Shown here: one piece after another, positions 11,701 to 62,675 of the stretch
How positions within the stretch are numbered: position 1 is the first letter of the stretch
Layout of the letters: each line of letters opens with the position of its first letter
Origin: Rhynchopus sp. YZ270_cl-10
Lineage: Eukaryota
Assembly: GCA_964035575.1 (NCBI GenBank)
Contig: OZ037833.1
Span: 434,001 to 498,000, forward strand
Direction: 5' to 3'
DNA length: 64,000 nucleotides
Made by a program: the position numbers and the translations under genes
The notes under the pieces: generated by a model
The model's input: the letters and a program-made list of their open reading frames with translations, nothing else
Databases searched by the model: none
Told to the model about the DNA's origin: nothing

Positions 11701-11826
11701 CACCTTTTGCAGCTTATCCATATGCCTTTCAAACTCTGCATCTCTCCACACCGGTTGAAACATCGGCACAGCGGGCATCACATATTCACTATAATACGAT
11801 GCTGCCGCAGGAGGATACGGAGGCAT
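8771..11826 (-). CDS. Non-canonical poly(A) polymerase/TUTase (Cid1/TENT-like) with C-terminal MLLE (PABC) domain; exons 11826-9043 and 8878-8771 or further
   Basis: GSFAQGTALAGSDLDL plus PVDLCI catalytic motifs and PAP-associated VEDPADVTNNVSR. LGNALYSRV...CGMLLE joins via a GTATG...CAG intron (9042-8879) to ILALLYDPQALRIQVSQAVAMV. The 3' end is uncertain: donor at 8770 or read-on to 8645. Confidence 0.85.
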
Positions 11827-14794: not shown

Positions 14795-17700
14795 TTATCG
14801 AACCCCGGAGTGATGTGCATGGGTGTGGTTTACAGGGAAGCTGTAAGCAGGTATACAGTCATTACCCCACCCTGATCGGGAAGGGGGGACAGCATGATTT
14901 AAAGATTCAAGAAAAGCACGTGTTTTGGCACACAACACTGGGCGTCTGCTGAATCCGATGAGCGCCGGGGCGCCGACGGAACGGAGGGAGTGCACACGAT
15001 CCCTCTTCACACCAGGGAATGGGGCGCGGCGGAGATTCGCTGTTAAAGCTCGCATGTTAGCCTTGACGATGAGCCTTTGCATGACCCGCCCACGTTCACG
15101 GATATTAGAGGTCTGTTTGGCGAGGAAGACCCTTGTGCGCAATTCGAAGTCGACCGCGAGCTCGACACACGACACGTCGCGGGGTTCTTTGCTCCACTCG
15201 AGCGTAATCACCCACCACAGGAAAGTTTTCAAAGTGAACGCCTCCCTATAGCTGGAGGAAAAACTAGGCCGTAGCTTGGTCAGGTAAGTGCGGAAGGGGG
15301 TATCGCGTTTAGAGGCAGCAAATGTGAGATTCCAAGGATGTACAGCCGGGGCCACATCCGTTGGATTTGAGAGGGTCGTGTCGATCGTGGTGACGGCATC
15401 GAGGAGAAGAGACTGTACCGCCTTCACCGCCACCTTGTTCACATTGGAGGGCACAATGCCGTGCAGCACAAAGCAGGTGGGCAGCCCCTTGCCATAGAGG
15501 CTGATGGCCGACGCATGTAAGGCAGTGAACGCCGCTGTGTGGACAATGCTGCAGTGCCACAGTAGGTGGCGTGTGTGGCATGTAACCTGGATGAGGCACA
15601 AGGGGCATTTATCGCTGAAGTCTGCCTCGGGTAAGCCACTGCGCTTGAGCCCTGCTGGATGGCAGAAGAGGACTCCGCCACACAGAACACGTCGCATCCG
15701 GAAAGCCTTGAGGGGGTCGTGGTACTGTAGGGTGTGCCACAGGGCATTGGTGGCGCGGGTGTCAATGCCGTCGCTTATGCCGTCGTACGTAGGGCGTTTA
15801 CTCTGCAGATCATCCCAGACCGCCGTACGCGCCAGAGCTCGCACTTCATGGGCCCTCTTGGCTTTGTCTGTCCCGATGATGGGGATAGTCTTCGCGGTTG
15901 CAGACGTAGACGTCACTGCCCTCATCTCAGGGTCCCAACTCACGTCACATCTGCGGGAGGCGGCGAGGACAGACCCCACTGGACCAACTGCATGCATAGG
16001 TGTACCCCGGGTTGCCAGGGTCTCGTACCTCTCTCTGATGCTCATGCACCTCTGGCGTATGGCGTCATTGCGTTCCACACTGGCGGCGTAAGCTCTGAAC
16101 GTCCTGCATATTGCACTCGAGAGGGGGTGTGCCACGTGCGCCTTCAGGCAGAGTGTGAGCAGTGCATCCACTGAACGAGTAAGGTAGGTGGGGCCCCAGC
16201 AGCACATCGCCACCGCCGTCGATAATTCATTCATCACTGACTGAGGGGGCATGTTGAAGGCGGACTCATATAACACTGAAGGGAGGATGGCAGAAGTGGC
16301 GATAGACACCTTCTGGGAGAAGGAGAGCTGTGTCGCACCCAAACATGAGAGCGCCCTAATGGCTGACTGGTATACCGTAGCGTTGTAGCGCCCCTTGCTC
16401 CGTAGGGAGCTGTACATCATCACGCCAAGTGAGCGAAGCGACTTAGTTGTCTGGAACACATGATTGTCCTCAGACTTCAGCGTGCATTTGTGGTTCTTCA
16501 GCGATGAGAAGGCATAGGTCTTCGCCATGTTGAGGCGCATGCCTGTGAGGCGGCAGAAGTCCTCCACTCGCAACAGACACGCCCCCACCGAAGCTTCGCT
16601 ATGGCGAGACAGAAGGTATGCGTCGTCAGCAAACGACCGTACAAACGCCTCAGGTACCTCCGCCGTGATGCAGTGCGTCAGGACCGACATCAAGGCGTTG
16701 ATGAGCACCACAGAGAGTGGGCACCCCTGCAGGATCCCATTCGTCACGGAGTACGCCTCTCCTACGCCGGAGGGCAGCTTGAACCGCCGTCTCAACGTGG
16801 CGTACATCGCTCGTATAGGTGTCATGATCCTGGGGTGAAGCCCCATCTTTTCAACAAGATCTAAGGTGAGGCCTTGCGGTACGCGATCGAAGCATTTCGC
16901 AAAGTCTAGTGCCAGTCCGTGTAGCGGTTCGCCACCGAGCAGAGCGTCCTCCATCTGTGTGAAGACGTCATACAGGACATCGTTCGTGCTGTGCTTTGGG
17001 CGGAAGCCATGTTGCGACGGGTGTGCCCATTGTTCCTGCCATTGTTGAACTGCCTGCAGGCGTGCGCAGGCCCATAACCGGTATACCGCACTGGTCACAG
17101 TCACAGGACGTAGCTTCAAGGGGGACTGGTCTTCGCCTTTGGGAAGGAGCGTCACCAGGGCGGTCAACAAGGCTTGTGGCCACACACCGTTCGTTTCTAT
17201 CGTGTTGAACACTCGAGCAAAACCTTCCAGTATGCATAGGGGCATCGCATGAAGTTCCAATGAGCGCCAGCCATCAGTTCCGCAGGCGTCCGTGCGCTTA
17301 CCTTTCCTGTCGAGCGTTCTACGCAAGTCAGCACCACTTAGTGGGTCTAGGGACATCGGGGAATTTGCGACGAAGCTGCCGAAACGTTGCTCGAAAGAGG
17401 CGAGAGTTGGCTCGGGATGGTCGTGGTCGTATAGGTTGAACACTGACTTCCACTCATCACGCAGTAGTTTGTCCATCTCCCTGTGATTGGCCGTAAGCAC
17501 ACCGTCCTCTCCCCGAAGGGCGGAAATAGGAACACCCTGTTTCCCCATGCACCACGCTGTGAGTTTCCGTCGCTCGCTGCTAAAATCCACCTTCAGCTTG
17601 GTGGTGTACTGCTTCTCGCGTTGTAGCCGGGTATTGCGTATCTCGAGGTTCATAAGCGCCTTGGACTTGTTCAACAGAGAGTTAAGGATCTGTAGCTGCT

Positions 17701-19237
17701 TTTCGAGCGCGGGTGGGACTGTCGTCTCCTCGGACCTCAGCAACTTGAGCGTGACTGCGGTGCGGAACACTTTACCCCAGGCGTTACGCACAGGATTCTC
17801 CATCACCCCACCAGGACAAGATTCTGTCTTCGCAATGAGGTCCGTGAGCTTATACTCAAATTTGGCAAGTTGGTCCTGTCGGGGGGAAGACCCACCAACA
17901 GACGCCGGTCGCGTAGGTGCACACACCGGTTTCAGCACAGGATGGGGGATCTTGGAGCGGCCGCAGAACCCTTTGGAGAGCGTGTCACCAGCTGCCTTTG
18001 CCGCGAGCAGGAGAAACTCTTCCCCAGCCAGCGCGATCGCTTCCCACGCATCGTCAATGTCACCGGACGCAAGTGTAGCGGCACAGTTGTGTTGTTGTAG
18101 AAGGTTCTTGCCGACTGTCTCAGCATTCGCCACCGTCCCAAGTTCCGGCATCTGTTTGGGGATGGTATACCGAAGTGTCGACTCTGTAAACACAGAGAGG
18201 CAGAGTCGCACGTTGACGGACTTGTGGCTGGGGATGCAGTTGATACGATGTGTCCAACAGCTATGGACGGCATGTGCAGCGACGCTGTTCAGCAAGATGT
18301 AATCGATACGGGTCCCTGCTGAGTCTTTGCGGGTGAACGTGGCAGGGGGCTTGCCGTCATCCCCAGTGCTGCCCAGGAGCGCGACGTCGCACCAGTCCTT
18401 GGCGAGTGCTTTCCGCAATGTTGGTGATCTTTCCACATCAGTGTTGAGGTCGCCGCACACAATCAACGGAACGTTACCCAGGGTTTCTCGAAACTTCACA
18501 AGCACTGTGTGGAGGAGTTCTTCGCGTGCAGCAACTGTAGCTCTTGGCGTGTCACCTGACGGGGCGTACACATTCACCACATGCAGGAACAGACGGCCGG
18601 AACCAAGCGCTACGCGCGTGTGCACCACACGTTTCCTCAGCTCGGGCTTCAGAGAAGACGTCAGTTCGGTGTCCAGGAACATGATGCCCGGTCTCTTCAG
18701 CATGGTGGCCACTCCCCCACGTTCCCCAATGTGTGGACTGCGGAGGCCATGGACGAGTGTGCCATCCATGGGGGGGCCCCATTCTGGAGACCAGACTGTG
18801 GTGAAGAAGTCGTTCATCTCCAAGATCTTGGACTCGGTCAACTTTGTCTCTTGTAGACACACTATATCGCACTTCAGGTCGCGTATGATATGTGCGTAGT
18901 TCTGTAGGGATGTGCAGTTGATGGTGGTTAGCGTGAGGGTGTTCTCAGCAGCGGAGCAGCACGTACGCGAGGAGGAGGATCTATCCGTTGAAGAGGAAGA
19001 AGAAGAAGCAGAGGTAGAAGAAGATGTGTCTGAGAGTGACGGGGGGAAAACGGGGCGAGGAGAAAACGATGCCAAGGATGATGATGATGATGATGATGAT
19101 GAGGAGGAGGAGGAGGAGGTACGGTTTGGGAAGTGGCGGGGACCAGGGCGCGTTTCGATGCACTCGCGAGGAAGCTGCTCGTAGTTGTAGGCGGCGAGTG
19201 ATTCCGGAAAACGCTTCGTGCTGTTGGTGTGGGGGAG
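14795..19237 (-). CDS. ORF2: apurinic-type endonuclease, reverse transcriptase and CCHC finger
   Basis: APE motifs TINC, CLQET, VYAP, GDLN, RIDY, SH. RT motifs LRPVT, QHGFR, LDFAKCFD, GILQGCPLS, FADD. C-terminal CPLC..H....C. The frame is open from 19237 to the stop at 14795. Confidence 0.95.
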   Translation of the reverse strand, partial: LPHTNSTKRFPESLAAYNYEQLPRECIETRPGPRHFPNRTSSSSSSSSSSSSSSLASFSPRPVFPPSLSDTSSSTSASSSSSSTDRSSSSRTCCSAAENTLTLTTINCTSLQNYAHIIRDLKCDIVCLQETKLTESKILEMNDFFTTVWSPEWGPPMDGTLVHGLRSPHIGERGGVATMLKRPGIMFLDTELTSSLKPELRKRVVHTRVALGSGRLFLHVVNVYAPSGDTPRATVAAREELLHTVLVKFRETLGNVPLIVCGDLNTDVERSPTLRKALAKDWCDVALLGSTGDDGKPPATFTRKDSAGTRIDYILLNSVAAHAVHSCWTHRINCIPSHKSVNVRLCLSVFTESTLRYTIPKQMPELGTVANAETVGKNLLQQHNCAATLASGDIDDAWEAIALAGEEFLLLAAKAAGDTLSKGFCGRSKIPHPVLKPVCAPTRPASVGGSSPRQDQLAKFEYKLTDLIAKTESCPGGVMENPVRNAWGKVFRTAVTLKLLRSEETTVPPALEKQLQILNSLLNKSKALMNLEIRNTRLQREKQYTTKLKVDFSSERRKLTAWCMGKQGVPISALRGEDGVLTANHREMDKLLRDEWKSVFNLYDHDHPEPTLASFEQRFGSFVANSPMSLDPLSGADLRRTLDRKGKRTDACGTDGWRSLELHAMPLCILEGFARVFNTIETNGVWPQALLTALVTLLPKGEDQSPLKLRPVTVTSAVYRLWACARLQAVQQWQEQWAHPSQHGFRPKHSTNDVLYDVFTQMEDALLGGEPLHGLALDFAKCFDRVPQGLTLDLVEKMGLHPRIMTPIRAMYATLRRRFKLPSGVGEAYSVTNGILQGCPLSVVLINALMSVLTHCITAEVPEAFVRSFADDAYLLSRHSEASVGACLLRVEDFCRLTGMRLNMAKTYAFSSLKNHKCTLKSEDNHVFQTTKSLRSLGVMMYSSLRSKGRYNATVYQSAIRALSCLGATQLSFSQKVSIATSAILPSVLYESAFNMPPQSVMNELSTAVAMCCWGPTYLTRSVDALLTLCLKAHVAHPLSSAICRTFRAYAASVERNDAIRQRCMSIRERYETLATRGTPMHAVGPVGSVLAASRRCDVSWDPEMRAVTSTSATAKTIPIIGTDKAKRAHEVRALARTAVWDDLQSKRPTYDGISDGIDTRATNALWHTLQYHDPLKAFRMRRVLCGGVLFCHPAGLKRSGLPEADFSDKCPLCLIQVTCHTRHLLWHCSIVHTAAFTALHASAISLYGKGLPTCFVLHGIVPSNVNKVAVKAVQSLLLDAVTTIDTTLSNPTDVAPAVHPWNLTFAASKRDTPFRTYLTKLRPSFSSSYREAFTLKTFLWWVITLEWSKEPRDVSCVELAVDFELRTRVFLAKQTSNIRERGRVMQRLIVKANMRALTANLRRAPFPGVKRDRVHSLRSVGAPALIGFSRRPVLCAKTRAFLESLNHAVPPSRSGWGNDCIPAYSFPVNHTHAHHSGVR

Positions 19238-19750
19238 TCAGTCGCGCTTAGGTGACGAGGCCGCCCCGGTGAATTGAGGGCGGGAGTAGTCGTGGGATTT
19301 ACCGTCCTGCGCATTCGGGATGTGGATGGCTCCCTTGAACTGCCTCATCTTGCGTGTGGGCCGGTCCTCCGGGACCGTCTCGCGAATGAGCAGGGGTTCG
19401 TGATAGTCCCCTCGCGCTATCTTCGTGAACTGGGGTCGTTCCTGTGCGCACACGATGATCACATGCTGGCGTTTCTTTTTGTATGAGGAGACACACTTGC
19501 AGTCGAATCCCGAAGCCTGGAGGGTTTTGACGATGTCCTCCCTCAGCTCGTACTGGCGCGCTCCGAGGACGGTGTACTTCATCGCCCGAGGGTCCATCAA
19601 CGGCGTCACATTGTTCACCCCAATGTCGTTGACCGCCTCCGCTGTCGCGTAGTTGTTGGTGAGGCGGATGCCGAGGCCCCCCCCGCTGCCGATCACCAGT
19701 CCCAAGGTGGTTTCCTCATGGGAGTTGCAGAACTCCCACGCGTGGTCCAT
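19238..19750 (-). CDS. ORF1 of the retrotransposon (170 aa, unknown function)
   Basis: ATG-started, GC-rich ORF directly upstream of ORF2 and in the same frame. Confidence 0.7.
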   Translation of the reverse strand: MDHAWEFCNSHEETTLGLVIGSGGGLGIRLTNNYATAEAVNDIGVNNVTPLMDPRAMKYTVLGARQYELREDIVKTLQASGFDCKCVSSYKKKRQHVIIVCAQERPQFTKIARGDYHEPLLIRETVPEDRPTRKMRQFKGAIHIPNAQDGKSHDYSRPQFTGAASSPKRD

Positions 19751-19988
19751 TGTGAAAAAAAAAATTCAAAAACAGAAAGTCTCCAATAAGACTTGATGGT
19801 AAAATATATGACTTCTTACTTTTTTGGCCTAAGGACCAAACAACGATGAAATCATCCACATAACATTTCTAATAATTCTATGTTGTTTTGCATCGACACC
19901 CCATTATAGGGAAACGTCATTTTTTTTTGCAAATCTAATATATTCCCCACCCCTTTTTCTAGTTTTAAAATATTTTTGTTTTTTTGTG

Positions 19989-22900
19989 TCACTCCCATGT
20001 TTCATTGTGGATATGAAATCTGAGTCTTCGGCGAAGGAGGTTAAGCTTATCGACACTCTTCCGCACCGCGATTTGCATCGATTTTGGCCCACAAACGACA
20101 ACTGCTGCAGCACGAATCTGCCCGTTTAGCCCAGGAATATCAGGATTTCCAAGCTCATTCTGGACACTGAGGGTTTCGAAAACGTCTGGGTGCTTCGATG
20201 CTGACCCGCCCCCTTGAAAGAGGTTCGGCCTCCCTTGGTACAGGATCTGCACTCGTTGACACCCTAGGGTGTTTGCCTTTGCGTCTGCAATGGACTGCAT
20301 ATGGTCTACATCGCATTGTCCTGGCACCTCTGTCTGTGGAGGCTGCATTTCAACCTCAGCGTTTGTAAGATTCCCTAACAGATTCCCCCCGGTCTCGTGA
20401 AGGTACGCTCTGAAGACGAAGTTCAAATTTGAGGTAGGTTTTTCGTTGTCAACGTCCAACGCCATTCGGATCGTTCCGGTAGGTTGTTGTCCACAGAAGA
20501 GATCGAATAAACGCCGATCCTTCGCCGCCCATACTAAAGTAATCACCTTAGTTCTGCTCACCCCAACCGGAAGTTGCTGTCCCCATCTCGGGTCCAAATA
20601 GTACTCCAACATAGACATCAATGGAGCGGCGCCTAGCCCTCCCGCAATCAATACAACGTGTTCATATCTCCGTACATCAACGCAGGGTGATCCGTACGGT
20701 CCCATAACCCGAATTTTCCCTAATTGGCGAGATTCAGAGTGTTGGTGAACCTTTTGCGACCAGGTTCTCATATGAGGATGTGATGCGATGTGGAAGGTGA
20801 ATGCTGTAGTGGGTTCTCCTCGGAGCGGTTCCATTTGGTCGTCGGCGATGTGGACGGGGCGGCTGGACATGGCAACACTGTGCCAAGAGTAGTCGATGGC
20901 AGGGAAGGAGATGAGAACGTACTGCAACGGAGAGAGCCGGTCGATCCCGAACTCATCGTGGAAAACCGAGTAGTTGGAGACAGCGATCTTCACTTCCACA
21001 GAGCAGACCTGCATATCACCAAAGGTGCCTTCCTGGTATGAGGCAACAGCACTCCGTGTTGACCCATCTTGAAAGCATGATGGCGGCGCGCACCCCATCC
21101 CACCATGCGCAATGCCCCAATGGTAAAGCCAGTACATCACCTCAATAAAAACAAGGACCAAGGTAAAGACTGTGCCATAAATGAGTTTCCAATAGTGAAC
21201 ATGTGCCCAGGTGAATGCCCAGAGAGCACAGAAGAGTTCGAGACGGCGGAAGGCGGTGGGTTTGAACCATTTCTGTTGTAGGGTGAAGATTATTTCATAT
21301 ATCAAATCTACTGAATAGAAGGTATACCATGGTGCACTATAAAGGGTGAAGATGAAAAGGAAAAAAAGCATTTTAGTTTGGTATCTGAACAAGGGGTGGG
21401 AATGACACAAAGGCATACCCTCCTACGTTGGTCTGACATCGCATTGAGCAGGACCACACCAAGCACTCCGAAGAGAGAGAAGAAGCCGGGCAGACCTGCG
21501 TGCCGCCCTGTGGTGCCGTCATCCCAGGACAGTGCATCCGAGGAGTAGTGTGCGATCTGTGTGGTATTGTGAATAGGGTATTTCGGATACTTTACATAAA
21601 TCCGATAGAGAGAGACAATGTGTTGGCTATGTGGGAATGGGAGTGGAGGGAGCGGAAGGAGTTTATTTGATAAAAATTGCAGAATTTAGTTTTCAGGCAT
21701 GTCACCAAAAAGGCGAAGGAGGGTGTGAAGTGTGGGTAATGTACATACCATCCCAATGCCGTGCACCAGCAGCAGCACCAGAAGCAGCCTGCAGTTGAAG
21801 TTATGCCACCTCCGCGCGCGGCGCTTCGTCAACGCGAACATCCACAGTACAGGGGATGAGTTTGTCAGCGGGATGAGGAAGAGAGAAAAGCACAACAGCG
21901 CCCCTGCACCAAAGGCACGTACTTCTGGAGCAGAAAGACGGTCCTGTGTGGAGACGGGTTGTGCGTTGTGTAAAGAGAATAAAAAAACAAAAAAAAACAT
22001 ACCCGAGAGTACTCCTTAGCGTACAACCCTACCCACATCGACACCAACACTATGTACGACAGCACCAAAAACGCCTGAAACGTTGTCAAATGGAACTCCT
22101 CCATGCCCTGTCAGGTGGTATTTTTATTTTTTGAAAATCTTTCTATTGCCATACCTGAAACAACACCGAAACGCGCCACAAAAAGTTTTTCGGTGAATAC
22201 CGTGTAACATAGTACCCCGAGCATGCCATGAGCGTGAGATAGAGCACCGTGAAGTCGATCCACCAATATGGCATGCTTTCTTTGACACAGCTGCTGTCGA
22301 CGGTGCCATCTTCGAAGTGGATGCAGACAGTGCCTTGGGTGGTGTGCATTGCTTGGTCTGCAGGGCCGTAGGCGTAACTCACGTAGTAACTGTTGAGGGA
22401 CGCATTCGCAAGCGAAACATCGGCTACCGCATCGGTTGTCAACAACGGCCGTTTGAACTTCACGGTGTACTTATCGCGCACCCCGGTTTCCTCGAAGGAA
22501 ATGAAGGTAAGCCCTGGAGTGCCCCCTTGCTGAGAGTCAGGCAGCACCGCGCCGTTGTGTTCAACGTCGCCTGCCCAGCAGTCCTGGAGCATTGAATCAT
22601 CTGGGTCGATTGTGATGTCGCGGTCCACCTTCCATACGTCAGTGTTCCGCATGCCCGGTTCAAGGGAAATGCCCACCGCTCCTTGCATCTCTGCCTTCAG
22701 CATGATCGTCACCCAAATCTCCTTCGGGGTGCTTGCAGTATTGACTACCCAACAGAGACGGAATTCGTCTACAACAAAGTCATGACAAAACTTCATTTCC
22801 GGCGACTGTCCTCCTGCGGCAAAGGGCACCGGAGTGGACCCCACCGAGCTTGAGGTGGAGGCGCGGTACGCAACCTGGGTGGATCCTCTGTCGGTGCACT

Positions 22901-25900
22901 GTTGGATTTCTTGCGTCTCAGGGTCGATCCCTCCGTAGCCCCACAGAAGCACCTGGCTTGCCACCAACGGATCAATCGCAAGATCGTCGTACGCAAAGGG
23001 GCTGATCGGGGGGTCCAAAACCACCATCGGGTTGTTTGAAATCCTCGCTAAAACGCTGTAGTCCCCTTGCATGCCTGCTAGCTGGCTTGTGGAGGTAAGG
23101 TTCCCAACCGCGTAGTTAGCATCCACAGGCACCGATACATCCCAGAACAGCGTGCTGTAGAGGGTGTCAGAGGCGCGGGTAAAGGTCTTCGCTTGGGTAA
23201 AAATCGCGTTGTTTGCAACAGGGTCTGCGTTTCTAGTGGGGACAAACTTTTCCTTCAGTGCTAAAGTGTCAACAAGACCGAAGTTGAAGTACGCGATTTT
23301 GACTCCTTCAGCCCATCCGTTCAGTTTTGGTACTGTAGTAGCATCTTGCGGTTCGAGGGAAGAGAGCGGATCGACCACCCAGAGGTTAACTAATTGTTCT
23401 GTGTCGTATGTCTTCCAAGATTCGCGTTGCACGACTTCAAGAACGTCGGAGACTGTGGTGATGCCGCCGAAAGCTTTTGAAACGGGGTCGGTCCCATCGC
23501 CCAGCCAGTTTCGTGGCACCTCCACGATGACCAGCTTGTGTACATCCGAATATACATTTGAGGCGGCCGTATCCTCAAAGGGAACGTTCAATGAGAATGA
23601 CACCGCCACGTCTGACAGCGTTTTGATTGAATCATCGTTTGCCCCCGACGGCAAATTTTCGAACACCGGCGCCAGCGCTGCAACCGCCTCGCCAAACCTA
23701 TACAACGTAGCCCCCGTTTTTGCGTCCTCATTTTGAAGCCCCTCCGCCTCACGCACAGTCACCGCAGTCGGGTGACGGAACACAAACACTCTATCCGCTA
23801 AGGCATGCGTCATATTCCCTGGAACCGCATTGGGGGAAGAATAATACCACAACGGACGGTCCGCATAATAGCCTTTCTCCCTTGATAGAGTGACGAGAGG
23901 CGCTGAACGCGAGGTATGTGACACTGTAGGGCACGTATAGTGCACAACCGGCTGATGGCAGGTACCATTCCAAAAGCAATGCTCCCTCGGGCAGGTCACC
24001 TCGGAGAGCTTCTCGGCACACTCCTTCATGGTGCTGTCCACCGCTGTGATAGGATGCTCATTTGTCCCCTCTGCCAGCCGGATCACCTCAAGGCATGTTC
24101 CTCCTATGGCACGGCTCATGACATAAGAGATTTTGTTTTGTGCGTTAACGACTTTGTACAGTATAGTAGGGTTCGCGAATGCGGTGGAAAATTCGGGGTC
24201 AGAATTTTCAAAATATCCGAAATTGATTCCGGTCAATTCTTGGTTGTTATGGTAAAATGATACGGTCGGGAAGAGGTAACGGTGGGCACGCTCTGCAAGG
24301 ACTGAAGCGGGGTGGATCGCCGGGGTCAAACGGGAGAGAGATGAGGCTACGACAGTCCACGTCTTTTGCAGGGTTTCGGAAAGCAACGCGGATTCCGATT
24401 TTATGGGAAATGCAGTCGCAGCGTAGTCTCCATTCTGAGGGATCTCCACAACAGAAATAGAGTGGAGGTCTGAGTACCCTGCTTGCCCTGCGGAGCGAGA
24501 AACTATCTCATAATTTTGTGCCTCAGCCGCAGTAAAGACAGTTTCATTGAAGCGTAGTGCATAGCTGCTCATTGACGAAATCGGTTGATTGCCTACTGCA
24601 GATTCCAAACTAAATGGAAGCGGGGTGTTCATCAAGGCATAGAAGAACACCCTCAGACCTGGTCTTCCACTGACGTAGGCACTCCGTTTTTCGTAGACCT
24701 TTTTCTCATCCACTTCATTGCTTTGCGTGCTCGCGGAAGGAGCAGATAAAATCGGAAACGCATGAATCGAAGCAGGATTGATCGGATATGTGCTCTGTGA
24801 TAGCAGGTCTGTCGTTGGGTCGAATGTATCTGGTGAATCTGGGGCCGCCCACAGAGTGTGAAATACTGAGTATAGAGGCGATTCGGGTAGGTATGGGAGG
24901 AGGATTTTGCCGGATTTTACACGATATGCACGGAGAACAGTACGAACGGATTGTTCGGCAAGCTGCATGAAGTAAATTTCGTAGCTTTTGTGATACCCTA
25001 CACTCAATGTGACCCCCGACGGCGGCTGTGTCGTTGCAGAGCAGACCGGCCAATGATAATAAATTCCCCCTCTTTTCCGCGCAGGCCACCTCTTTCGCGA
25101 GATATCCAACACCGAGGTAACCTGCTCTGCAGTCTCCCCGGACGGAATCAACACCTCCTGCAGTTCTACCAAATCCGAATACCCCACGACACTTCCATTC
25201 ACGATCCGTTCATTTGCCGGAATCGCCTCGAACACTGGCAACAAATCCAACACCCTTTCATTTTGCAAAAAAATGTACACCCGGTTGACTGGGATCTCAT
25301 AGGTAGATTCATACGGAACGACATTTGTACGTTGCGACGCCTCGGTAGGCAGCGTCAAAGGGTAGCGAAACGAGGCATTCACGACCGGCCAAAAATTGAG
25401 GATCTTCCCCCGGTAGTACCCCACTCTCGGCAGGGCGAGGTTGTACTCCGGGAGCTCCTTCGCCTCCAACATGCTTTGCTCCACCTTTTCATCAATGTCT
25501 AATACAGGATAATTCAACGCCCACGGCATTTCTACCACAGTCATCCCCAACACTGCTGCCTCCGACCGATACAAATCCCCCCCTGGAGCAACCGCAGCCG
25601 GTGCATACACATAGGGACGTACCAGCCCTGTTGTCCCCCCAAATGGCAGCGTATTGAAGACACGCCCATTTTGGGTTGCCACCTCCGTCTCATACACCCT
25701 CCCCGGAACTAAGTCTGCGAGAAGCGGAAGTTGTTGGGTACCCCGCATTAAAACCTCCCACCCTTCGTTGTATGTTTCAAATGGTGAGGAGTAAGTCCGT
25801 GCATTAATTGCACCCCATCTCGGAACCTCACCTTGAGAAACAAAGAGACACTCAATAGTGGTGTCGTTCCAATACCATGAGAGGCGTGGGATTGCGAAGG

Positions 25901-28900
25901 GAGTGCCGTCCTTGGTGACGGTGGTTGCGCTGTGGGAAACCGCGCAGGTTATTAAAATGCTGGTGGAGGTGCGAACCCAGGAGGATGGAATGGAATCGAT
26001 CGAGGTAATAGGGAGCGGGGTGCTGTGGACATCGGGTACGGTCACCAAGGTGGCCTTCCAGATATGCGAATACCCGGTCTGTCCTGGAACAACAGAGGCA
26101 ATGTTTGCCTGCGTCTCTGGCGCCCAATATGCAGCAGCGCCAGCATCGGAGGGGCGACGAAGACAGAATACCTCTGCAGTGACGATACTCTTTTCGTCCA
26201 CAATCGGCATGCGTCCGGTCACACCATTGTTCATCGGAGTGTCATCCACCTGATAATACCCTGGATCCGATAAGTCTATGTAATAATTCTGCACACCATT
26301 GTACCACCCCTTTTGCAACGCAATGTCCATGGCCTTCAATGCTATTGCCTCCCCGGGGTCGATGGACATAATTTTTATGTTGACAATCTCAAGCGGGTTT
26401 TTCCTTTGCAATGAAGTGGTCACAGCGAGAAGGTCTGTTGCGCTGTTAATCCCATCCCTCGCCCCCTTCGGAACCACCGCGGAGTATACTATCTTAATAG
26501 GAGAGTACTGCACGGAGGATGGAATGTCTCCGAGAATGTATTTCTGTACGGCAGGAGCCAGCACCACGCTCTCATCCTCTTCGTATATTTCGTACATCTT
26601 GTCGATGGTGTTGTGCGTAAGATTGGAGAAGAAAGCGCAGTTCACCACCTGGCCTTGGTACCATAGCTGTCTCAGTTCTATTTTACTGTCATTCTGTTCG
26701 AATTGAGCCAACGCAGATACAACAGGGCAATCCCAGTAATAGTCTGTTTCTTCTACATAGGCATCTACAGCACGAAGCTCTGCCAAGGAGGTGATGTCAT
26801 CCGTCAACTGATCCGGCAGTCTCACACGACGGACCTTCATGACGTCAGAGTAGTCTGACAGACCTGGGACCGAATCGATGATGGACAGCCTTCCTACGGG
26901 GTGCCATAGCTCGTAGACGTACATAGTGTTTAGTAAGCCAGAATTTTCTGTTGTTTCGGTCAACGTATTCTTGACAATGTAGTGCGACACCTTCGAATTC
27001 AAAAAGAACGAATCGGTCTGTGTGTACGTCGCAGGCTTATCAAGAGGGAGCGGCAGACCTACGGAGGGTGGGCTGTTTGGGATGGACGCATTCCCGGTGG
27101 TCAGTTTCCAGTAGATGTCGGTGGAGCCGCGCATCGCAATGCCGTTAGAATGGATGTGCGTAATGTCGATTGTGCCTGCACCGCATTCACCTGTCGTCCT
27201 GCTGTCGCCTGCTGCGTAGAGTACCCTAGCTGCAGTGAAAGGGTCCTCCGGAATGTAGCCTTCGGGGTCATGTGCTGACCCAGTATATCCCCTAGTAAAT
27301 GAAAGAACAATTTTTCTCCCAGTAACCTCGATTTTTTGATCAGCAAGCGTCATGGTTGCGCGGGAGGTATCCGGAGGGCCTGAAATTTGGTCGGAATAAG
27401 CGGATCTGATACACGAAGCGCCATGCCGATCCGACATTCCGACCACCAAATCAGCGTTGGTCATTTGCGTTGACCCGACGTCTGAAAAGCCAATTCCGAC
27501 ATAACCCGGTTCGTACCTCGCGTCGAACAAAGCCTCCATCTGCACCTGCACCACACCAACCTCATTGGAAACAGTCCACCGCAAGAATATTTCCGCCATA
27601 GGAAAGACATTTGTTGACCCCTCTGCCGGGTACACCTTCATCTCTCTTGTGTATCCATGGGATGCTTCCACGGGAGCTGGGGTTTCTTCTTCAGCTAAGG
27701 CAAGAATGTTAAGAATAAACCGGTTCACGTATGTAACGCTGCTTAAGGTAGGGTCGAAGGAAGCTGAATCCGAGACGTTCGCTGGTAGCAGCGAGGTGGA
27801 GTTGATAACAGTAGTGTTTCCGTCGGGGAGTTGCCAGGTCTGCATCAGGAAGATCCCGGTGTTGGTCTGCATGGTGCTGTTCAGCTCTGCGGAGGATATG
27901 TTTACTAAGGCCGCAACCGGGGCGGTGCCTTCACTGTGAAGCTGCTCCCACATCAAATTGATTGACGAAACGGAATAGGTGTTTGGCACTTCTTCCGCAG
28001 TTTCCCAGGATTGCATGGGGGATTCGACGAATGCACCCATTTTTACCCCAAAATCGATGCAATAAGTTGGGGTCGTGCTGTCGCGGAACCACATAATCAT
28101 TTTGCTCACCTTCACCCCATATGAGTTTCGAACAGACGATCCAGAGCTGAGTGTCGGGCAATTCAGCCAAATCTGTGTCCTCCCTCTCCGCCAATCCTGA
28201 GGAATTGCGTGCGCCCAGCTTACGATACCTGCCGTATAATTTGATGGAACCACCGCATAAAATACCTGCTTTATATCAGAATAACCTTGAATTCCTGGCA
28301 ACGCTGTGGTTAATGGATACTGCCCGGGAATGCGATTATTTGAGACACGCGACGTAGTTGATTGAAGAAACGCACGCACCGCGTCATGACGTTGATCCCC
28401 TAATAACGCAGCCTCATCCTCCTCATCGATCAGAAGGTATACCGGCAGCGCCTTTGGCACTCCATCAGAACCAAATACACCGCCATTTGTCTCGATTTCG
28501 ACGTACGCGAAGTTCTTCGTGTCTTCCGTATAGCCTATCGTCTCTGCAATCAAAACTTCTCGCCCCAAGAAGAGTGGGGTAGGGGCGAGAGAAGATGTGT
28601 GAAAGTCGTTTGTCGTCAGAGGGCGAGAAAAGTTGATGACAGTGGACAACGACGTCACCTCAGTCCCAAGAAGTGTCAAATCCTGCTGGAAGTCCATGAC
28701 CGGTCTAGCCAACCCCGCGCTCTTCCTATCCTCAACCCGAACACTCCCTCCCCGATCAATCCAAACAGTCGCAATATCCGCAAACGAAAACCCTTCCCCA
28801 ACCCCAATCCCTACCCAAACATTTTCTGCACTGATGTTCCCAGAGTATTTTATGCTGAACCGAATTTCGCGAGAATTTTGCATTTCCCATGACACCGAAA

Positions 28901-30461
28901 GACGGGTATTGATCAGCTTCTCTCCATGCATATCTGCGAAGGGAATCACCGGGGCTGCAGTCACCGCAGTCAAAAACGGAGAAGGGGTAAGAATAGGGGG
29001 TTCTACTAGAGGTGCGTCGCTTTGCGCTGGGGTGTCGGAATCGGTCCAGAGGGACTGCACAGAACGCCACTGAGTTTGGTATAGACTGTTGAAGAGCGAG
29101 ACCCAGCTTTCATTGCATCGAGGAACCAAAGGGCCTCGTTGGACTGACCAGGTGAGAACCCCGTACTGTCCTAATGTAATGTCAGAGTCGGGGCGGTGCT
29201 TTCCTGTAGAGTCAAAGGCGGAGGCATCGAAATCGCGTTCAAACATAACGTACATCTCTCCACTGCGCAGAACGTTCATCTGCACATTGCGAACCCCCAT
29301 CAAATTGTCTGATGATAGTACCGGATCGGGAATGCCAGAAGAATACGAAGAGTCTGCAGGAACATAGCCAAATTGGGTGCACACTTCATCCCCTTCTTGA
29401 GGAACATAGAATAGCGCGGTTTCGGAGCCGACAGATTGAAGCTCTGCCACACTACGCGCTGCAGAGAACCCAAGACCCAACCACCCGGCACCAAATCTGG
29501 TAGAAAACAAAAACGTTACCGTCGAAGTGTCTGCGTCTGCAGTGTATTGCAGAGTCGTTAAATTCGAAAGAGCTACGGTATGTTGAAACGTTGTCTCCCA
29601 AAACGGTGCGCCCACCGAAGAAACATGCCAGGTTACGACCGGAGCAATGTCAGGATCATCACCAAATTGCGTAGGAATCTGCGACAATCCCGCAAATGAG
29701 GTGACCGAATTCAATATGTAGGTCGCCGCGACGTTCACGTTGCGCTTCACAAAATAGGGGATGAAACTGTGCACACCTGGCGGAACTTCGAGAAGTGCAT
29801 TCCCCTCCACCCTTTGCGGCGTAGGAAGCCTTTGCAGCACCCACGCTATGAGACTCCCATTGCTCGTTTTCACGCCATGATCACGACCTGGGTAATGCAA
29901 CACATCGTTATGAAGCACCATACAATAATGTGCCGCTCCTTCTACTATATAACGCCTTAAAACTGCGGTTTCGAATTGAAGGGTAGCGGTGGTTGCGACA
30001 GAGGGGCAATGCAGAAAGGTGCCTTGGGGAATGAGGTTCCATCCGTTTTGTTGTACTGCGGAGGTGACGTCGGAGGCAGATTGGAGGGAAAGCTGTTGAA
30101 ATATTCCGGCATCGGTTGCGGGGATGGCCACCACAATGATACGCCAGATTCCTGTGTATTTGATTGCGGTGGAGGAGCGGGTTTCAGTGTCCCCTAAGAT
30201 CGCGGTGTCGGCTATGTACGGCGAATCTGCAATGGGGGATAATATGCCTGCATCGTTGACAAAAGAGAAGTGGTACATCGTTGCCGGTGGGTCCGAGGAG
30301 GTCACTAACTCTGCCCCAGAGAATTCATAGTATTCGAGCCGTCTGCCGGACACCCATCCCTGTTGTTGTGTGATGCGCCCGGTGGGGACGGCAGCCTCAG
30401 CACGCCAGGCCTCCTGCACAGCCAGGAGCAACATAAGGCATCGTAGATACCGAAGAAGCAT
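19989..30461 (-). CDS. Giant (~3,342 aa) signal-peptide protein: 4 DOMON domains, repeated YSD modules, ferric-reductase transmembrane region and FAD/NADPH domains; exons 30461-22155, 22107-22003, 21943-21749, 21556-21419, 21272-19989
   Basis: Four phase-0 GTATG...CAG introns join the ORFs in frame. DOMON motifs GWLGLGFS, WVGIGV, YVGIGFS..MTNAD, GMRNTD. Heme His pair in RRWH...LVH. GPYG, LIAGGLG, CGP and HNETW motifs. Confidence 0.85.
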
Positions 30462-31168
30462 TCAGGAAAAAAACAAAAAAACAAAAAACAAAGAGAGAGA
30501 CAGACAGAGAGAGCCCCCCCCAATGCAGGGACCTCCCAAAGGGGGAGGGGGAGGGGGGGTGTGTTCTGGAGGGGGGGGTGGTGAAGAAAATTTGGCTTGA
30601 AAATACAAAGAAAAAAGCCGCCGTGAACAGTGGGGTTGCTTATAGATGATGGGATCATCTTCGTCAAATGCTCGCTTTGCAGAGTGTAGCGAACTCCAAC
30701 CTCTGACGGATACGTTGCGCACTTTCAGGGAGACACACAAGGCGTCGTAGCGAAAGGAGCAGCCGGCGCTAAGAGATACATTGATAAAATGAAGCTTTTT
30801 TTTGGTGGGACAGATTTTGCATTTTTTTGATCGCACAACACACAGCGGCTTTTTTTTTGTAGGGATAGAAGAGAGCAGCAAAGCCCTGGAGAGAAAGAGC
30901 CGTATGTAGCGTGTGTGTGTGAGGAGGCAGAAAAAGACAAAAAAAACACAACAAAAATACAAGGCAAAATATCCCTTGAACCACCCCCCATCGTAAGTAA
31001 GAAAAAGGTAAAGCTGAACCAAAGCTCTCTTCTCAATGCTTTGGTCACCTAAAAAGGAAACTCCAAAACAAACCTCAATAATGTACACAACACACTCCCC
31101 CTTTTTTTTCACAAAAAATATATCAACTACAGCCCCTCCGCTAGATAGGATTCTGTAATCACCCATGA

Positions 31169-31243
31169 GGATCGATGATTGCAATTATTCTCCTTGAATG
31201 AGGAATGCCTAGTAGGCGCAAGTCATCAGCTTGCACTGATTAC
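31169..31243 (+). pseudogene. Isolated 18S rRNA fragment
   Basis: GGATCGATGATTGCAATTATT..TTGAATGAGGAATGCCTAGTAGGCGCAAGTCATCAGCTTGCACTGATTAC matches the conserved eukaryotic SSU segment preceding GTCCCTGCCC. Confidence 0.85.
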
Positions 31244-31301: not shown

Positions 31302-32261
31302 TCAGATGTCAAAGACAATGGGTTCTCTCCCCAAGGCCTGTCCGTGGTTGTACATGGCTGCGTTGATATATTTTGTCCCAAATTTATCTGTTGACTCCCC
31401 ATATGCATCGTGCACATGCCCGGACACGACTGCAAATGGATGCAACTGCAGGGCCGCCTTGGTGAGGCGTGGACAGCCGCTTTTATCATCATTCTGCCCC
31501 TCCGGCGGACCGTGCACGACAAGCACATCACAGTCATCCGGTATATGCTCATACGGGTTATACAGCGAAGGACTCATTGGCCAATAAAACGCAGACCCAT
31601 ACAGCTTCAACGACGCACGCACCTCTCCGACCACAACCTGGATTGTTGCTACACCGTTTTTCAAGAATGTTGCGTTGCTTAAGAGAGAAACCTGCTTCTT
31701 TGCGATGGGACCTTGCGCTTCATGGTTCCCTTCTACTACAATGATAGATTTAAAGCGAGTCTGCTCGCCTAGCCAAACATTAAAATCCTTTGCATCCTCT
31801 AGACTGCCATATCTCGTATAATCCCCAGCATGAATGAGCACATCACCTTCAGGAATGTTCACCTCACGATGTCTACCGTGGGTGTCGGAAATGCAGACCA
31901 CACGAAGCCCTTTCTTTTCCTTCTGCTTTTTCGACAAACTGAGCAACCTACACAACTGCTGGCAGCCCACCGCAGCAATCAGTGAGATCACCCCGGTTGC
32001 TGCAGATAGTCCCGAGATCTGCACCATGATCTCTTCTTTCGAGGGCCCCGATGAAGACGATGACGACGAGCAAAGCGAACCCTCCTCCTCCTCCTCCTCA
32101 CCCCCTCCCGCAGGCAAGGTAGATGGTGGGGGTGGAGGCGAAGGGGTGGTGTCGGAGGCCTCTTGCGGGGGTGTGCTCGGGGCTGGTGTTGTGGGTGGGG
32201 GTACGTCCCGGGTGGTGTCGGTGCCCGAGATGGTATTACTATGGGAACAGGACCCTCCCAT
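31302..32261 (-). CDS. Calcineurin-like metallophosphoesterase (MPPED/239FB-like)
   Basis: ISDTH, HAGD, GNHE, HGPP and GHVH motifs. Likely start MGGSCS lies right after a pyrimidine-rich CCACAG. Confidence 0.9.
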   Translation of the reverse strand: MGGSCSHSNTISGTDTTRDVPPPTTPAPSTPPQEASDTTPSPPPPPSTLPAGGGEEEEEEGSLCSSSSSSSGPSKEEIMVQISGLSAATGVISLIAAVGCQQLCRLLSLSKKQKEKKGLRVVCISDTHGRHREVNIPEGDVLIHAGDYTRYGSLEDAKDFNVWLGEQTRFKSIIVVEGNHEAQGPIAKKQVSLLSNATFLKNGVATIQVVVGEVRASLKLYGSAFYWPMSPSLYNPYEHIPDDCDVLVVHGPPEGQNDDKSGCPRLTKAALQLHPFAVVSGHVHDAYGESTDKFGTKYINAAMYNHGQALGREPIVFDI

Positions 32262-33620
32262 CTGTGGAGGAAATGATGATAAATGGGGGGATATTTGAGT
32301 AATACCAGATAAATGGTTCCAAACCACTGTAATGTCATGACATGGCACGATGCGATGTTTAAGAGTAACGAAGTTCTTAAGGGGTTAGCATGACATATTG
32401 TCATTTTTATTAATTTATCGTGCATCCCCCAGATTCGGCAGGGGGTCAATTCCCCTAGAAACAACCCTGCATGGTGTCCATTCACCCGGCTGCATGAGCT
32501 GCCGCATATCAGGCTGATGTCTTTTTCGAGTGCAGCCATTGTCATGTACATTCCATATAGGATATCAGTGTAGAGATTCACGGTACAGAGTGTGCAGAGT
32601 GCAACACCTACCACACTTTGGTTTCATCTATTACTAGATCAGCAGTGTAGAGATGCAGTGCTATAATAGGAAGGGGAGGAAGAAGGGGTGGGGGGGACTA
32701 AAGGGAGGGGAGGGAATCTTGGGAAAAAAAATCGATGGGGGGAAGAGTTTAGAATGAGCTTCTTTCTTGATATGAAGGTGAAGGAAGTTTTTTTTTTTTT
32801 TTTGACTCGATTTTCATTTTTTTTTTGCATTTCAAATTGTTGTGTGTTTGTAGCTAGAAGAAAAAATGAATTGCGTTTTGTTTGAAAAGCGGGCACAAAA
32901 GCGGGTTTTTGGGAGAGAGTGGAAAAGCTAAAAAAAAAAACGACACATTGATGACTTCTCAAACCCCCTTTTTGTTTGTTCGATGCAAGGTTGTTGATGT
33001 GCCTCATATGCACCATTAAACTCGCTGTAAGAAAGAAAACTTAAGAAAAAGCGAGTGCTTTCTGCAAAAAGGAATGCATCACCTCAACAATATTTTTTGT
33101 TTTTTGACTTGAAGGACAGAGACATCACGCACCAAGCAAAAATAAAATAAAAATAAAACTTGAAATACAAAAGCCCTCTCGTGGCAGTGCACTGTAAAAC
33201 AAAAATGCAAAAGAAAGAAAAAATTACATATTGTCATACCCCCCGTACGTAACACATATCATCCAAGACAACACATTTTTTTTTTGGGAAACTTGGTTTT
33301 AGTATGGACACCCGAGGATGAGCTCCACAATCCAAGACATTCTTTTTTTTTGTGGTCAAAACTGGTTTTTGTTTTGTTTTGTTTTGTTGTTATTAATACA
33401 CCACCATCGCCATATCCTCTCCTTCGAAAAAAAAAAAAGGAGAAAAAAAAGGGGGGCACTTGAATTCCAAAGCCCATGACAGTGTACCCCAAATATTAGT
33501 CCCAGCCGCTGTGTGATTGGCTAAAACCATTTTAACCCCTTTTTTGCAAAAAAAAAAACCCCCTCCCAAAATACGTACAAAACTCATTGTTGATTCTTAT
33601 AAAAAAACGGAAAAAAAAAT

Positions 33621-48104: not shown

Positions 48105-48296
48105 CTTGGGAGGGGGGATGCTCTGATGTGGCTGATGCGGTGGGGTGGGGAAGGTGCATCACTGTGCCGAATCAACAAAAAAAGACCGTCGTTTTTTTAG
48201 CCCCCTGGCAATATCCCCTCACTTAACACCCCCTTGATCTTCATGCCAATGTTAATCGACACAAACATCCTCCCCCTCCCTCCCCCCGCTCCCAAA

Positions 48297-62498: not shown

Positions 62499-62675
62499 TT
62501 TTTGTGTCTTTCTCTGTTTGTGGTGTTGTGGGATCAGGGAAGAAACAGGGAGCCCAACTCCCCCCACGGAATCGCCAACTAGTTGCTCTGTAACTGTACG
62601 CAGACATGTGGCACTTTGCTATGAAGTCGTCCACTCCAAATGACTGCTTTCACGCCTGCAATCGTGGGTGTAGTA

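What the first reader, a model, noticed from the sequence alone, without database searches (positions are those of the whole stretch)
19989..30461. Giant extracellular multi-DOMON ferric reductase/NOX fusion
Three ORF-track fragments and one unlisted exon splice into a ~3,342-aa protein. It has a ~2,700-aa ectodomain with four DOMON domains (the third and fourth keep candidate Met/His heme ligands) and roughly ten YS(D/P)...VP...(I)TS...CP modules, on top of an FRD-FAD-NADPH core. Known: DOMON-FRD fusions exist but are much smaller. The repeat module resembles a prokaryotic DUF7482-type domain (from recall, unverified). Inference: a trans-membrane electron conduit to a large surface substrate-binding array.
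Basis: partly seen in the sequence, partly recalled or inferred. Interest (0 to 1): 0.8.

Follow-up and report, generated by a model that had tools for sequence, protein, structure and literature searches.

The report
Giant looped surface metal reductase
A single-celled eukaryote splices five exons into a gene for a 3,342-residue membrane protein that joins a ferric-reductase-type core to four DOMON domains and seven pairs of an unstudied DUF7482-like repeat; it likely passes electrons from NADPH to copper or iron at the cell surface, although one of the four usual membrane heme ligands is replaced.

Summary
The gene is real. Five exons give exactly 3,342 aa. One public contig skips all four GT-AG introns and links most of the ectodomain to the reductase core; a second carries a spliced leader upstream of the ATG. 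Seven full-length relatives (3,101-3,438 aa) share the layout, from three diplonemids, two named kinetoplastids and two metagenome records.

- The repeats form seven A/B pairs (14 modules), not about ten.
- DUF7482 kinship is shown through relatives, not by a direct Pfam hit.
- DOMON2 appears split by a ~1,860-aa insert, so most of the ectodomain would be a closed loop.
- The NOX signature is absent.
- The TM5 inner-heme His is Glu here and in Rhynchopus. Both inner His are lost in three relatives, while the outer pair is invariant (8 of 8).

Bacterial DUF7482 genes go with cupredoxins, P-type ATPases and MsrQ-like or DsbD-like membrane proteins. Best reading: a surface copper/iron reductase (0.5). 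Rivals: a thiol/oxidant-defence relay, or a redox sensor or adhesin. I found this architecture neither in ten paper searches nor in earlier scan notes; the scan saw DOMON reductases and DUF7482 only separately.

The parts
30462..30567 (-). Trans-splice acceptor AG (30567-30566) and 104-nt 5' UTR
   Evidence: X4 contig ends at 30566 with 11 loose letters that match the end of a longer loose piece seen at 32262; naming them a euglenozoan spliced leader is from recall
22155..30461 (-). Exon 1 CDS, aa 1-2769: signal peptide, whole ectodomain, first TM helix
   Evidence: ORF; translation; X4 contigs
30393..30461 (-). Probable signal peptide, aa 1-~23
   Evidence: Judged by eye; hydrophobic N-termini also in P0151, P0003, P0004, P0005, P0154; no predictor run
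29607..30371 (-). DUF7482-like module pair 1 (aa 31-285)
29067..29564 (-). DOMON1 (aa ~300-465), no Met/His ligands
   Evidence: Pfam E 0.008, below cut-off; alignment and own profile
28596..28913 (-). DOMON2 N-terminal part (aa 517-622); Phe at the Met position
   Evidence: Pfam E 3e-15, covering profile 3-105 of 124
27702..28562 (-). Module pair 2 (aa 634-920), Cys768/Cys801 invariant
27096..27599 (-). DOMON3 (aa 955-1122), candidate heme ligands Met1000 and His1104 (or His1102)
   Evidence: Pfam E 1e-11; Met in 7 of 8 family members; His judged by eye
26364..27023 (-). Module pair 3 (aa 1147-1366), Cys1245/Cys1275 invariant; predicted as one compact, mostly beta unit
   Evidence: AlphaFold2 pLDDT 90.9, pTM 0.85
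25500..26324 (-). Module pair 4 (aa 1380-1654), Cys1506/Cys1538 invariant
24744..25433 (-). Module pair 5 (aa 1677-1906), no Cys pair
   Evidence: B half placed by position and relatives
23922..24695 (-). Module pair 6 (aa 1923-2180), no Cys pair; B half degenerate
23019..23888 (-). Module pair 7 (aa 2192-2481), no Cys pair
22857..23006 (-). Probable C-terminal part of DOMON2 (aa 2486-2535), 1,863 aa after the N part; Cys2522 near the His position
   Evidence: W2507, G2510 and G2526 invariant
22296..22778 (-). DOMON4 (aa 2562-2722), candidate heme ligands Met2604 and His2706
   Evidence: Pfam E 3e-4, below cut-off; His 8 of 8, Met 6 of 8
22108..22154 (-). Intron 1 (47 nt); same position implied in Rhynchopus
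   Evidence: Joint in X4; P0002 (ORF) and P0151 (transcript) part at the same residue
22003..22107 (-). Exon 2 (aa 2770-2804), FRD TM1; the exon not listed in the ORF track
21749..21943 (-). Exon 3 (aa 2805-2869), TM2-TM3 with His2851, His2865 and Met2869 (NOX His-119 position)
   Evidence: Pfam Ferric_reduct E 0.016
21419..21556 (-). Exon 4 (aa 2870-2915), TM4; Pro2892 at the NOX Thr-178 position
19989..21272 (-). Exon 5 (aa 2916-3342 and stop): TM5 with Glu2927 in place of the inner-heme His and with His2941, TM6, FAD and NADPH domains
   Evidence: Pfam NAD_binding_6 32.8 bits, over cut-off; phmmer to a NOX5-type dehydrogenase domain E 5e-6

Best explanation
This spliced 3,342-aa protein carries a ferric-reductase-type membrane domain with FAD/NADPH domains, four DOMON domains and seven DUF7482-like module pairs, and it likely works as a cell-surface metal reductase that would pass electrons from NADPH through FAD and the membrane heme(s) to predicted hemes in DOMON4 and DOMON3, and on to copper or iron held by the repeat array. 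Shown: gene structure, domain order, family conservation, ligand residues. Inferred: seven-TM topology with the ectodomain outside (or in a lumen); heme in DOMON3/4; DOMON2 reassembling from two parts, so that six module pairs and DOMON3 form a loop anchored beside DOMON4; a disulfide in pairs 1-4; metal binding by the modules; copper favoured over iron. In this species the inner heme would be His/Glu-ligated or absent.
For: Splicing. Seven full-length relatives with the same order. One of them is a single intronless ORF (L033). The outer-heme His pair is invariant in 8 of 8, and all four His are kept in 3 of 8. The NADPH domain is the best-conserved region against Rhynchopus (66%, against 35-55% for ectodomain regions), which argues against decay. 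The NOX signature is absent, which points to a metal reductase by the criteria of PMC3591440. DOMON-fused FREs are known (PMC3591440, passages). In an evenly drawn sample of one bacterial phylum, 7 of 17 DUF7482 loci had a cupredoxin fused or adjacent, 3 of 17 a P-type ATPase and 2 of 17 a DsbD_2 domain. In a second set, 3 of 32 loci hold an MsrQ-like FRD gene, each beside ApbE.
Against: Glu2927 replaces the TM5 inner-heme His; Rhynchopus shares it; P0012, P0024 and P0154 lack both inner His. PMC3591440 says the bacterial long forms keep all four His. The FAD motif is altered (Ser for Pro at 3047), and the TM6 Arg kept in P0003/P0004 is gone. DOMON1 and DOMON2 lack Met/His here. No His/Met/Cys metal site is evident in the modules. 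The copper link comes from bacterial neighbours, has no background control, and rests mostly on single-module proteins. The three ApbE/FRD loci look closely related (the two intact FRD genes are about 60% identical), so they count as about one event, and one of the three FRD genes looks frameshifted. No activity, location or expression data exist.
Confidence: 0.5

Rival explanations
1. An extracellular thiol or oxidant-defence relay: electrons would go to the Cys pairs of the modules, or to oxidised surface proteins, as MsrQ feeds MsrP, and not to a metal.
For: The module Cys co-varies with a second Cys 20-45 aa later: 29 both, 17 neither, 4 discordant, of 50 A-type modules. Three such pairs are invariant. 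Bacterial relatives are exported, often Met-rich lipoproteins. They lie near DM13 (3 loci by Pfam), fasciclin (2), Spondin_N (1), ApbE plus MsrQ-like (3) and DsbD_2 (2) genes. Earlier scan notes report selenocysteine at this Cys and MsrPQ neighbours (unchecked leads).
Against: Co-variation fits a plain structural disulfide equally well, and the modules are not independent. Three of seven pairs lack the Cys pair. No in-frame TGA was seen in 20 matches from 19 of 201 genomes. In two-module non-family proteins the two Cys do not co-vary (p 0.14).
Confidence: 0.2
2. A redox- or ligand-sensing receptor or adhesin built from a reductase. The core would no longer carry electrons across the membrane in lineages that lost inner-heme ligands, and the NADPH domain would signal.
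For: Inner-heme ligands are partly or wholly lost in 5 of 8 members, apparently more than once. The three members lacking both inner His also lack the FAD-motif His and the CGP Cys. The ectodomain is about 2,700 aa with 22 N-glycosylation sequons. Some non-family proteins join the module to PKD/Ig-like domains.
Against: Outer-heme His and DOMON4 His are invariant in 8 of 8. Three members keep all four His. Single-heme conduction has precedent in STEAP/YedZ (PMC3591440, passages). The CGP Cys is also absent in P0005, which keeps all four His.
Confidence: 0.2
3. A superoxide-producing NADPH oxidase (NOX/DUOX-like) with a large ectodomain.
For: The best PDB sequence matches of the core are DUOX1 and NOX5/NOX2. 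The seven-TM layout with a big ectodomain resembles DUOX.
Against: The His-119 position is Met in 8 of 8, and Thr-178 is absent in all members that align there. Pfam finds no EF-hand or peroxidase domain. The 11 PDB hits are NOX-type domains and other flavo-reductases, so closeness to NOX may reflect what has been solved.
Confidence: 0.07
4. An artefact: two neighbouring genes read as one.
For: The spliced contig comes from one run whose kind is not on record. A contig is not a molecule, and these organisms transcribe polycistronically (recalled). A 50-nt hole separates the two contigs.
Against: All four joints keep the frame. The contig that starts at 28773 has no listed loose 5' end. Seven relatives are single proteins, one of them intronless.
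Confidence: 0.02

Closest known systems
DOMON-containing eukaryotic ferric reductases (model M10 of Zhang et al. 2013, PMC3591440; Naegleria, Albugo, Phytophthora)
   Same: Extracellular DOMON domains ahead of an FRD, FAD and NADPH core; no NOX signature
   Different: Four DOMONs, not one or two; about 2,700-aa ectodomain with seven DUF7482-like pairs; DOMON2 apparently split by 1,863 aa; one inner-heme His replaced by Glu
Pfam DUF7482 (PF24298)
   Same: Same module, with the YS(D/P) and NCP motifs and an A/B pairing; 80 of 97 scanned non-family hits match it
   Different: The window protein itself gives no Pfam hit; here there are 14 modules fused to a reductase; the B-module Cys is lost and a new Cys sits in the first strand of B
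Database entries KAJ9472030.1 (Diplonema papillatum 'Ferric reduction oxidase 5') and CUG10079.1 (Bodo saltans, hypothetical / DOMON domain-containing)
   Same: Same architecture and size, probable orthologues; 31% identity to the Diplonema protein
   Different: Labels as given by the sources; no description of the architecture found in the searches run; they differ in inner-heme ligands (four His in Diplonema, two in Bodo)
Bacterial MsrQ-like/ApbE extracytosolic electron transfer systems (PMC8238504) and STEAP/YedZ single-heme FRDs
   Same: An FRD delivering electrons outside the cell; DUF7482 genes sit in 3 such clusters; loss of inner-heme ligands
   Different: Separate small proteins in bacteria; STEAP/YedZ carry Arg at the first His, whereas here that His is kept
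NOX/DUOX
   Same: FRD-FAD-NADPH core; DUOX also has seven TM helices and a large ectodomain (recalled)
   Different: No His-119, no Thr-178, no EF-hands, no peroxidase domain

Membership tests
Canonical eukaryotic ferric reductase (eFRE) | Six-helix FRD transmembrane domain | tested here: met
   Hydropathy finds TM1-4 and TM6, and TM5 is placed by alignment. Pfam PF01794 is weak on exon 3 alone (E 0.016) but over cut-off in P0003, P0004 and P0005.
Canonical eukaryotic ferric reductase (eFRE) | Four heme-ligating His in TM3 and TM5 | tested here: not met
   His2851, His2865 and His2941 present; Glu2927 at the fourth site. Met in 3 of 7 relatives. The window protein is therefore not filed as a canonical member.
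Canonical eukaryotic ferric reductase (eFRE) | FAD-binding domain | tested here: inconclusive
   Aligns to a NOX5-type dehydrogenase domain (E 5e-6); no PF08022 hit; motif His kept, following Pro changed to Ser
Canonical eukaryotic ferric reductase (eFRE) | NADPH-binding domain | tested here: met
   PF08030 32.8 bits over cut-off 22.2; Gly motif, CGP and terminal Glu/aromatic residue kept
Canonical eukaryotic ferric reductase (eFRE) | Metal reductase activity | not testable with these tools
   Needs an assay
DOMON-eFRE subfamily (M10) | Extracellular DOMON domain(s) N-terminal to the FRD | tested here: met
   Four DOMON regions; the paper lists one or two
DOMON-eFRE subfamily (M10) | Falls in that clade of the FRD tree | not tested
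   No named reference sequences were retrieved; one search gave 2 hits without a taxon
NOX/DUOX | His-119 in TM3 | tested here: not met
   Met2869; Met in 8 of 8
NOX/DUOX | Thr-178/Gly-179 in TM4 | tested here: not met
   Pro-Gly here; Ala-Gly in P0151, P0003, P0004 and P0005, placed by the DUOX1 alignment
DUF7482 (PF24298) | Match to the Pfam model over the cut-off | tested here: not met
   No hit for the whole ORF or any of its segments. Of 7 full-length relatives, 4 are over cut-off, 1 is below and 2 give no hit.
DUF7482 (PF24298) | Homology to DUF7482-bearing proteins by profile | tested here: met
   A profile of 8 window modules finds 317 proteins, and 80 of 97 scanned non-family hits carry PF24298. 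The reverse profile finds 9 window modules against a shuffle maximum of 2.7 bits. Filed as DUF7482-like.
Heme-binding DOMON | Met and His axial ligands (rule recalled from Iyer et al. 2007, not read) | tested here: met
   Met for DOMON3 and DOMON4 only. DOMON1 and DOMON2 lack them here, while DOMON2 keeps both in P0005, P0012 and P0154, judged by eye.
Heme-binding DOMON | Heme actually bound | not testable with these tools
   Needs spectra
STEAP/YedZ | Arg in place of the first TM3 His | tested here: not met
   His2851 kept; Phe or Ile in the three relatives that lose it
Any solved fold (module pair) | Structural match in the PDB | tested here: inconclusive
   see Tried and rejected

The most novel reading that the evidence does not exclude
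An undescribed, ancient euglenozoan surface redox machine. A lasso-shaped ectodomain, in which about 1,860 residues of copper-handling DUF7482 modules and a heme DOMON loop out of a split DOMON, is fed with NADPH electrons through a membrane domain that has repeatedly dropped to a single heme. It would give the first function, and possibly a new fold, for DUF7482, and show single-heme conduction in a full-length FRE.
Probability: 0.22. Interest if true: 0.85.

Novelty: new variant of a known kind. Interest (0 to 1): 0.65.

Why it matters
Diplonemids are described as abundant, little-studied marine protists (abstract start of PMC12699882); I found nothing in print on surface metal reductases in them or in Bodo. 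A conserved ~370-kDa reductase kept in both groups would be a prime candidate for how they take up or detoxify metals. The fusion ties the uncharacterised DUF7482 domain directly to a membrane electron source, which makes its function testable. The family is also a natural series with four, three and two membrane His ligands, which tests whether a full-length FRE can work with one heme. A DOMON interrupted by more than 1,600 residues in all eight members would be an unusual piece of protein architecture.

Tried and rejected
Genome and runs:
- No whole genome is held, so paralogues were not counted.
- The run search listed no holder on record as RNA. X4 was recognised as spliced only by laying it.

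Homology searches:
- Word-based searches found only the window ORF itself, nothing for exon 5 among longer proteins, and 2 weak hits for the Papus core among shorter ones.
- Plasmids, NCBIfam for the ectodomain, PDB sequences for the ectodomain and the module alignment and viral contigs gave nothing.
- The ESM Atlas gave no usable hit for the window module and only signal-peptide hits under 0.9 for P0027.

Structure:
- Single-sequence folding failed (pLDDT 29.8).
- For the good model, Foldseek found no PDB match at E<=0.001. VIA-align over 48,161 chains gave a best Z of 3.4, rmsd 2.3, 38 residues aligned. This does not prove a new fold.
- Complex prediction of the two DOMON2 parts was not available, so the split rests on profiles only.

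Other tests:
- The module tree (quick method; 47 family A-type modules and 65 non-family modules, every second one of those available) groups 45 of 47 family modules with weak support (85). It gives no donor or direction, so gene transfer is not claimed.
- Selenocysteine at the module Cys was not seen in 20 matches.
- Rfam found nothing credible around the gene.

Papers: ten searches found no description of this architecture. (DUF7482, 0 papers), 46, 66, 67, 111 and 115 were read as listings only; some searches gave background papers. Subscription journals are not covered. No supplements were opened; those of PMC3591440 might list a euglenozoan member.

Rejected: the NOX label; 'about ten' modules; 'prokaryote-only' repeat.
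Full report
GENE. The feature lies on the minus strand. A 2,772-codon ORF (30461-22143) is cut at a GT donor at 22154. Four more exons follow (22107-22003, 21943-21749, 21556-21419, 21272-19989). Together they give 3,342 aa with phase-0 GT-AG introns of 47, 59, 192 and 146 nt. Five public runs hold the DNA, none on record as RNA. Laid on the locus, run X4 has a 9,173-nt contig that skips 4 of 4 introns and runs from 28773 (aa ~563) past the stop to 19157. X1, X3 and X5 show none of these joints, nor does X2 for the two introns testable. A second X4 contig covers 28824-30566 and ends in 11 loose letters at an AG 104 nt before the ATG. A longer version of the same loose end occurs at 32262; from recall it is the 3' end of a euglenozoan spliced leader. 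Limits: one run, contigs not reads, and a 50-nt unbridged hole.

FAMILY. A profile of 8 window modules searched against 1.84 billion representatives gave 317 hits at E<=0.001. Among the top 150 and their cluster members are seven full-length relatives: Rhynchopus humris P0151 (3,431 aa, 44% identity), Sulcionema specki P0003 (3,101), Diplonema papillatum P0004 (3,164), Papus ankaliazontas P0005 (3,427), Bodo saltans P0024 (3,438), and the records P0012 (3,407) and P0154 (3,329) without a taxon. Partial members (P0002, P0007, P0008, P0042, P0139, P0155-P0159) were left out of the counts 'of 8'. A metagenome scan gave L033, where the gene is one intronless 3,410-codon ORF beside a dynein-assembly-factor gene. 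The fusion is therefore real and shared by diplonemids and free-living kinetoplastids. By closest relatives, cis-introns and leader, the window organism is most likely a diplonemid (inference).

REPEAT MODULE. Eight of 14 candidate modules pass a leave-one-out test. The window protein does not hit Pfam DUF7482. However, 4 of 7 relatives do so over the cut-off, and 80 of 97 scanned non-family hits match it (17 of 25 at E<=0.01; 63 of 72 at E<=0.001; 42 of 139 were not scanned). A profile from 236 modules of 138 non-family proteins finds 9 window modules above 8 bits, against a best of 2.7 in 30 shuffles, and 7-15 modules in the relatives. Non-family proteins carry 2, 4 or 6 modules in 119 of 138 cases. 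The window's modules alternate A and B, giving seven pairs; the weakest B halves are placed by position and by relatives. Pair 3, folded with 75 relatives, gives one confident, mostly beta unit (pLDDT 90.9, pTM 0.85). Fold searches are reported under Tried and rejected. In the family, the Cys of the A-module NCP motif co-varies with a Cys near the start of B (29 both, 17 neither, 4 discordant, of 50; not independent). C768/C801, C1245/C1275 and C1506/C1538 are invariant, which suggests a disulfide. The module is not confined to prokaryotes: Chytriomyces, Endogone and Nitzschia have it (3 of 10 looked up; the other 7 had no taxon). The tree gives no direction of transfer.

SPLIT DOMON. Pfam covers DOMON2 only to position 105 of 124. 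A profile built from DOMON3 and DOMON4 alone places its last 40-55 positions just before DOMON4 in 4 of 8 proteins (iE 4e-6 to 0.003). Scoring the N part followed by that segment extends the match to the profile's end in 8 of 8. It beats all of 318-390 control segments in 4 of 8, and all but 1, 4, 8 and 1 in the others (window: 1 of 359 higher). The gap is 1,626-1,900 aa. In P0005, P0012 and P0154 the two parts together carry Met and His; in the four diplonemid-type proteins they carry Phe and Cys (by eye). If the halves reassemble, pairs 2-7 and DOMON3 form a closed loop anchored next to DOMON4 at the membrane. This rests on profiles only.

CORE. One extra helix after DOMON4 plus the six FRD helices would put the ectodomain outside and the FAD/NADPH domains in the cytosol (inference). 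PMC3591440 (abstract, passages, and section 14 in full) defines four heme His, and His-119/Thr-178 as NOX marks. Here the His-119 site is Met in 8 of 8 and Thr-178 is Pro, so this is not a NOX. The outer-heme pair (H2865, H2941) is invariant. The inner pair is complete in P0003, P0004 and P0005, His/Glu in the window and Rhynchopus, and absent in P0012, P0024 and P0154. No other letter was listed for X4 or the other runs anywhere in the gene. The NADPH domain is still the best-conserved region among diplonemids (66% to Rhynchopus, 55% to Diplonema). The core is therefore under selection, but its electron path here is non-canonical.

WHAT THE MODULE DOES ELSEWHERE. Two bacterial samples were examined. 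(1) A pattern scan gave 32 loci, 31 titled Chloroflexota. The 25 examined encode exported proteins, mostly Tat lipoproteins, often with Met-rich linkers. Among neighbours of 26 loci, Pfam finds a sensor kinase in 11, DM13 in 3, fasciclin in 2, Spondin_N in 1 and ApbE in 3. The three ApbE loci also hold an MsrQ-like FRD gene (PF01794 E 1e-4 to 3e-4, below cut-off; four His by eye; one copy looks frameshifted). These three look closely related. PMC8238504 (passages) describes MsrQ-like/ApbE clusters as extracytosolic electron transfer systems, some probably iron reductases. PMC7189620 and PMC4140639 (passages) note that DM13 goes with DOMON and is predicted to act in electron transfer. (2) An evenly drawn set of 201 genomes gave matches in 19. 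Of 17 loci scanned within 1.5 kb (55 ORFs; L052-L054 left out), 7 have a cupredoxin fused or adjacent, 3 a P-type ATPase, 2 DsbD_2 and 2 Lipoprotein_15. There is no background control, and most of these are single-module proteins. Among the first hits, cupredoxin fusions occur in 3 of 97. All this is guilt by association, pointing to copper and envelope redox.

MECHANISM. Most likely (0.5): NADPH to FAD to membrane heme(s) to DOMON4/DOMON3 hemes to Cu(II) or Fe(III) gathered by the looped array. The parts and their order are shown; every functional step is inferred. Rivals: a thiol/oxidant-defence relay (0.2), a sensor or adhesin with a non-conducting core (0.2), a NOX (0.07), an artefact (0.02).

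KNOWN OR NEW. It works like a DOMON-fused ferric reductase (M10 of PMC3591440), but it fails the four-His test and is not filed as a canonical eFRE. Its modules are DUF7482-like. Relatives sit in databases under generic labels. Ten paper searches found no account of the architecture, and the scan's notes show no look-alike. The notes do hold DOMON reductases and DUF7482 proteins separately, which I used as leads only. Iyer 2007 and Aravind 2001 were not read; the Met/His rule is recalled. Verdict: new variant of a known kind, interest 0.65.

Noticed in passing
window 31165-31243: A ~79-nt stretch matched by very deep contigs that continue as what looks, from recall, like small-subunit rRNA. 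It is flanked by a short inverted repeat. Possibly an inserted rRNA fragment; Rfam reported nothing there.
   Followed up: partly
window 21307-21339 (intron 4) and ~30931-30939: A short, high-copy dispersed element; contigs of three runs join the two places, with 19 other letters between.
   Followed up: no
window 14795-19765 (-): LINE-like retroelement (endonuclease plus reverse transcriptase) right after the gene; the spliced X4 contig runs on to 19157, into its upstream ORF.
   Followed up: no
window 31302-32262 (-): Metallophosphoesterase gene with a spliced-leader-like loose end at 32262.
   Followed up: no
window 57169-58980 and 61353-62618 (-): Two BspA-type leucine-rich-repeat ORFs with a weak N-terminal ubiquitin-like match, alternating with duplicated CRAL-TRIO ORFs at 53433-54578 and 59463-60389.
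   Followed up: no
window 41961-43832 and 45867-48158 (-): Two ORFs with a weak B-box match, the first also with BspA-type leucine-rich repeats.
   Followed up: no
window 9031-12249 (-): Non-canonical poly(A) polymerase-like nucleotidyltransferase ORF with a weak C-terminal MLLE match.
   Followed up: no
L051:481-1821 (-); L036:213-1421 (-): A DUF7482-DsbD_2-cupredoxin fusion, and a DsbD_2-cupredoxin gene beside a DUF7482 gene, both next to a P-type-ATPase-like gene.
   Followed up: partly
proteins P0073, P0079, P0058: Stand-alone secreted DUF7482-like proteins in Chytriomyces, Endogone and Nitzschia; the two whose sequences I read (P0073, P0058) end in hydrophobic tails like GPI signals.
   Followed up: no
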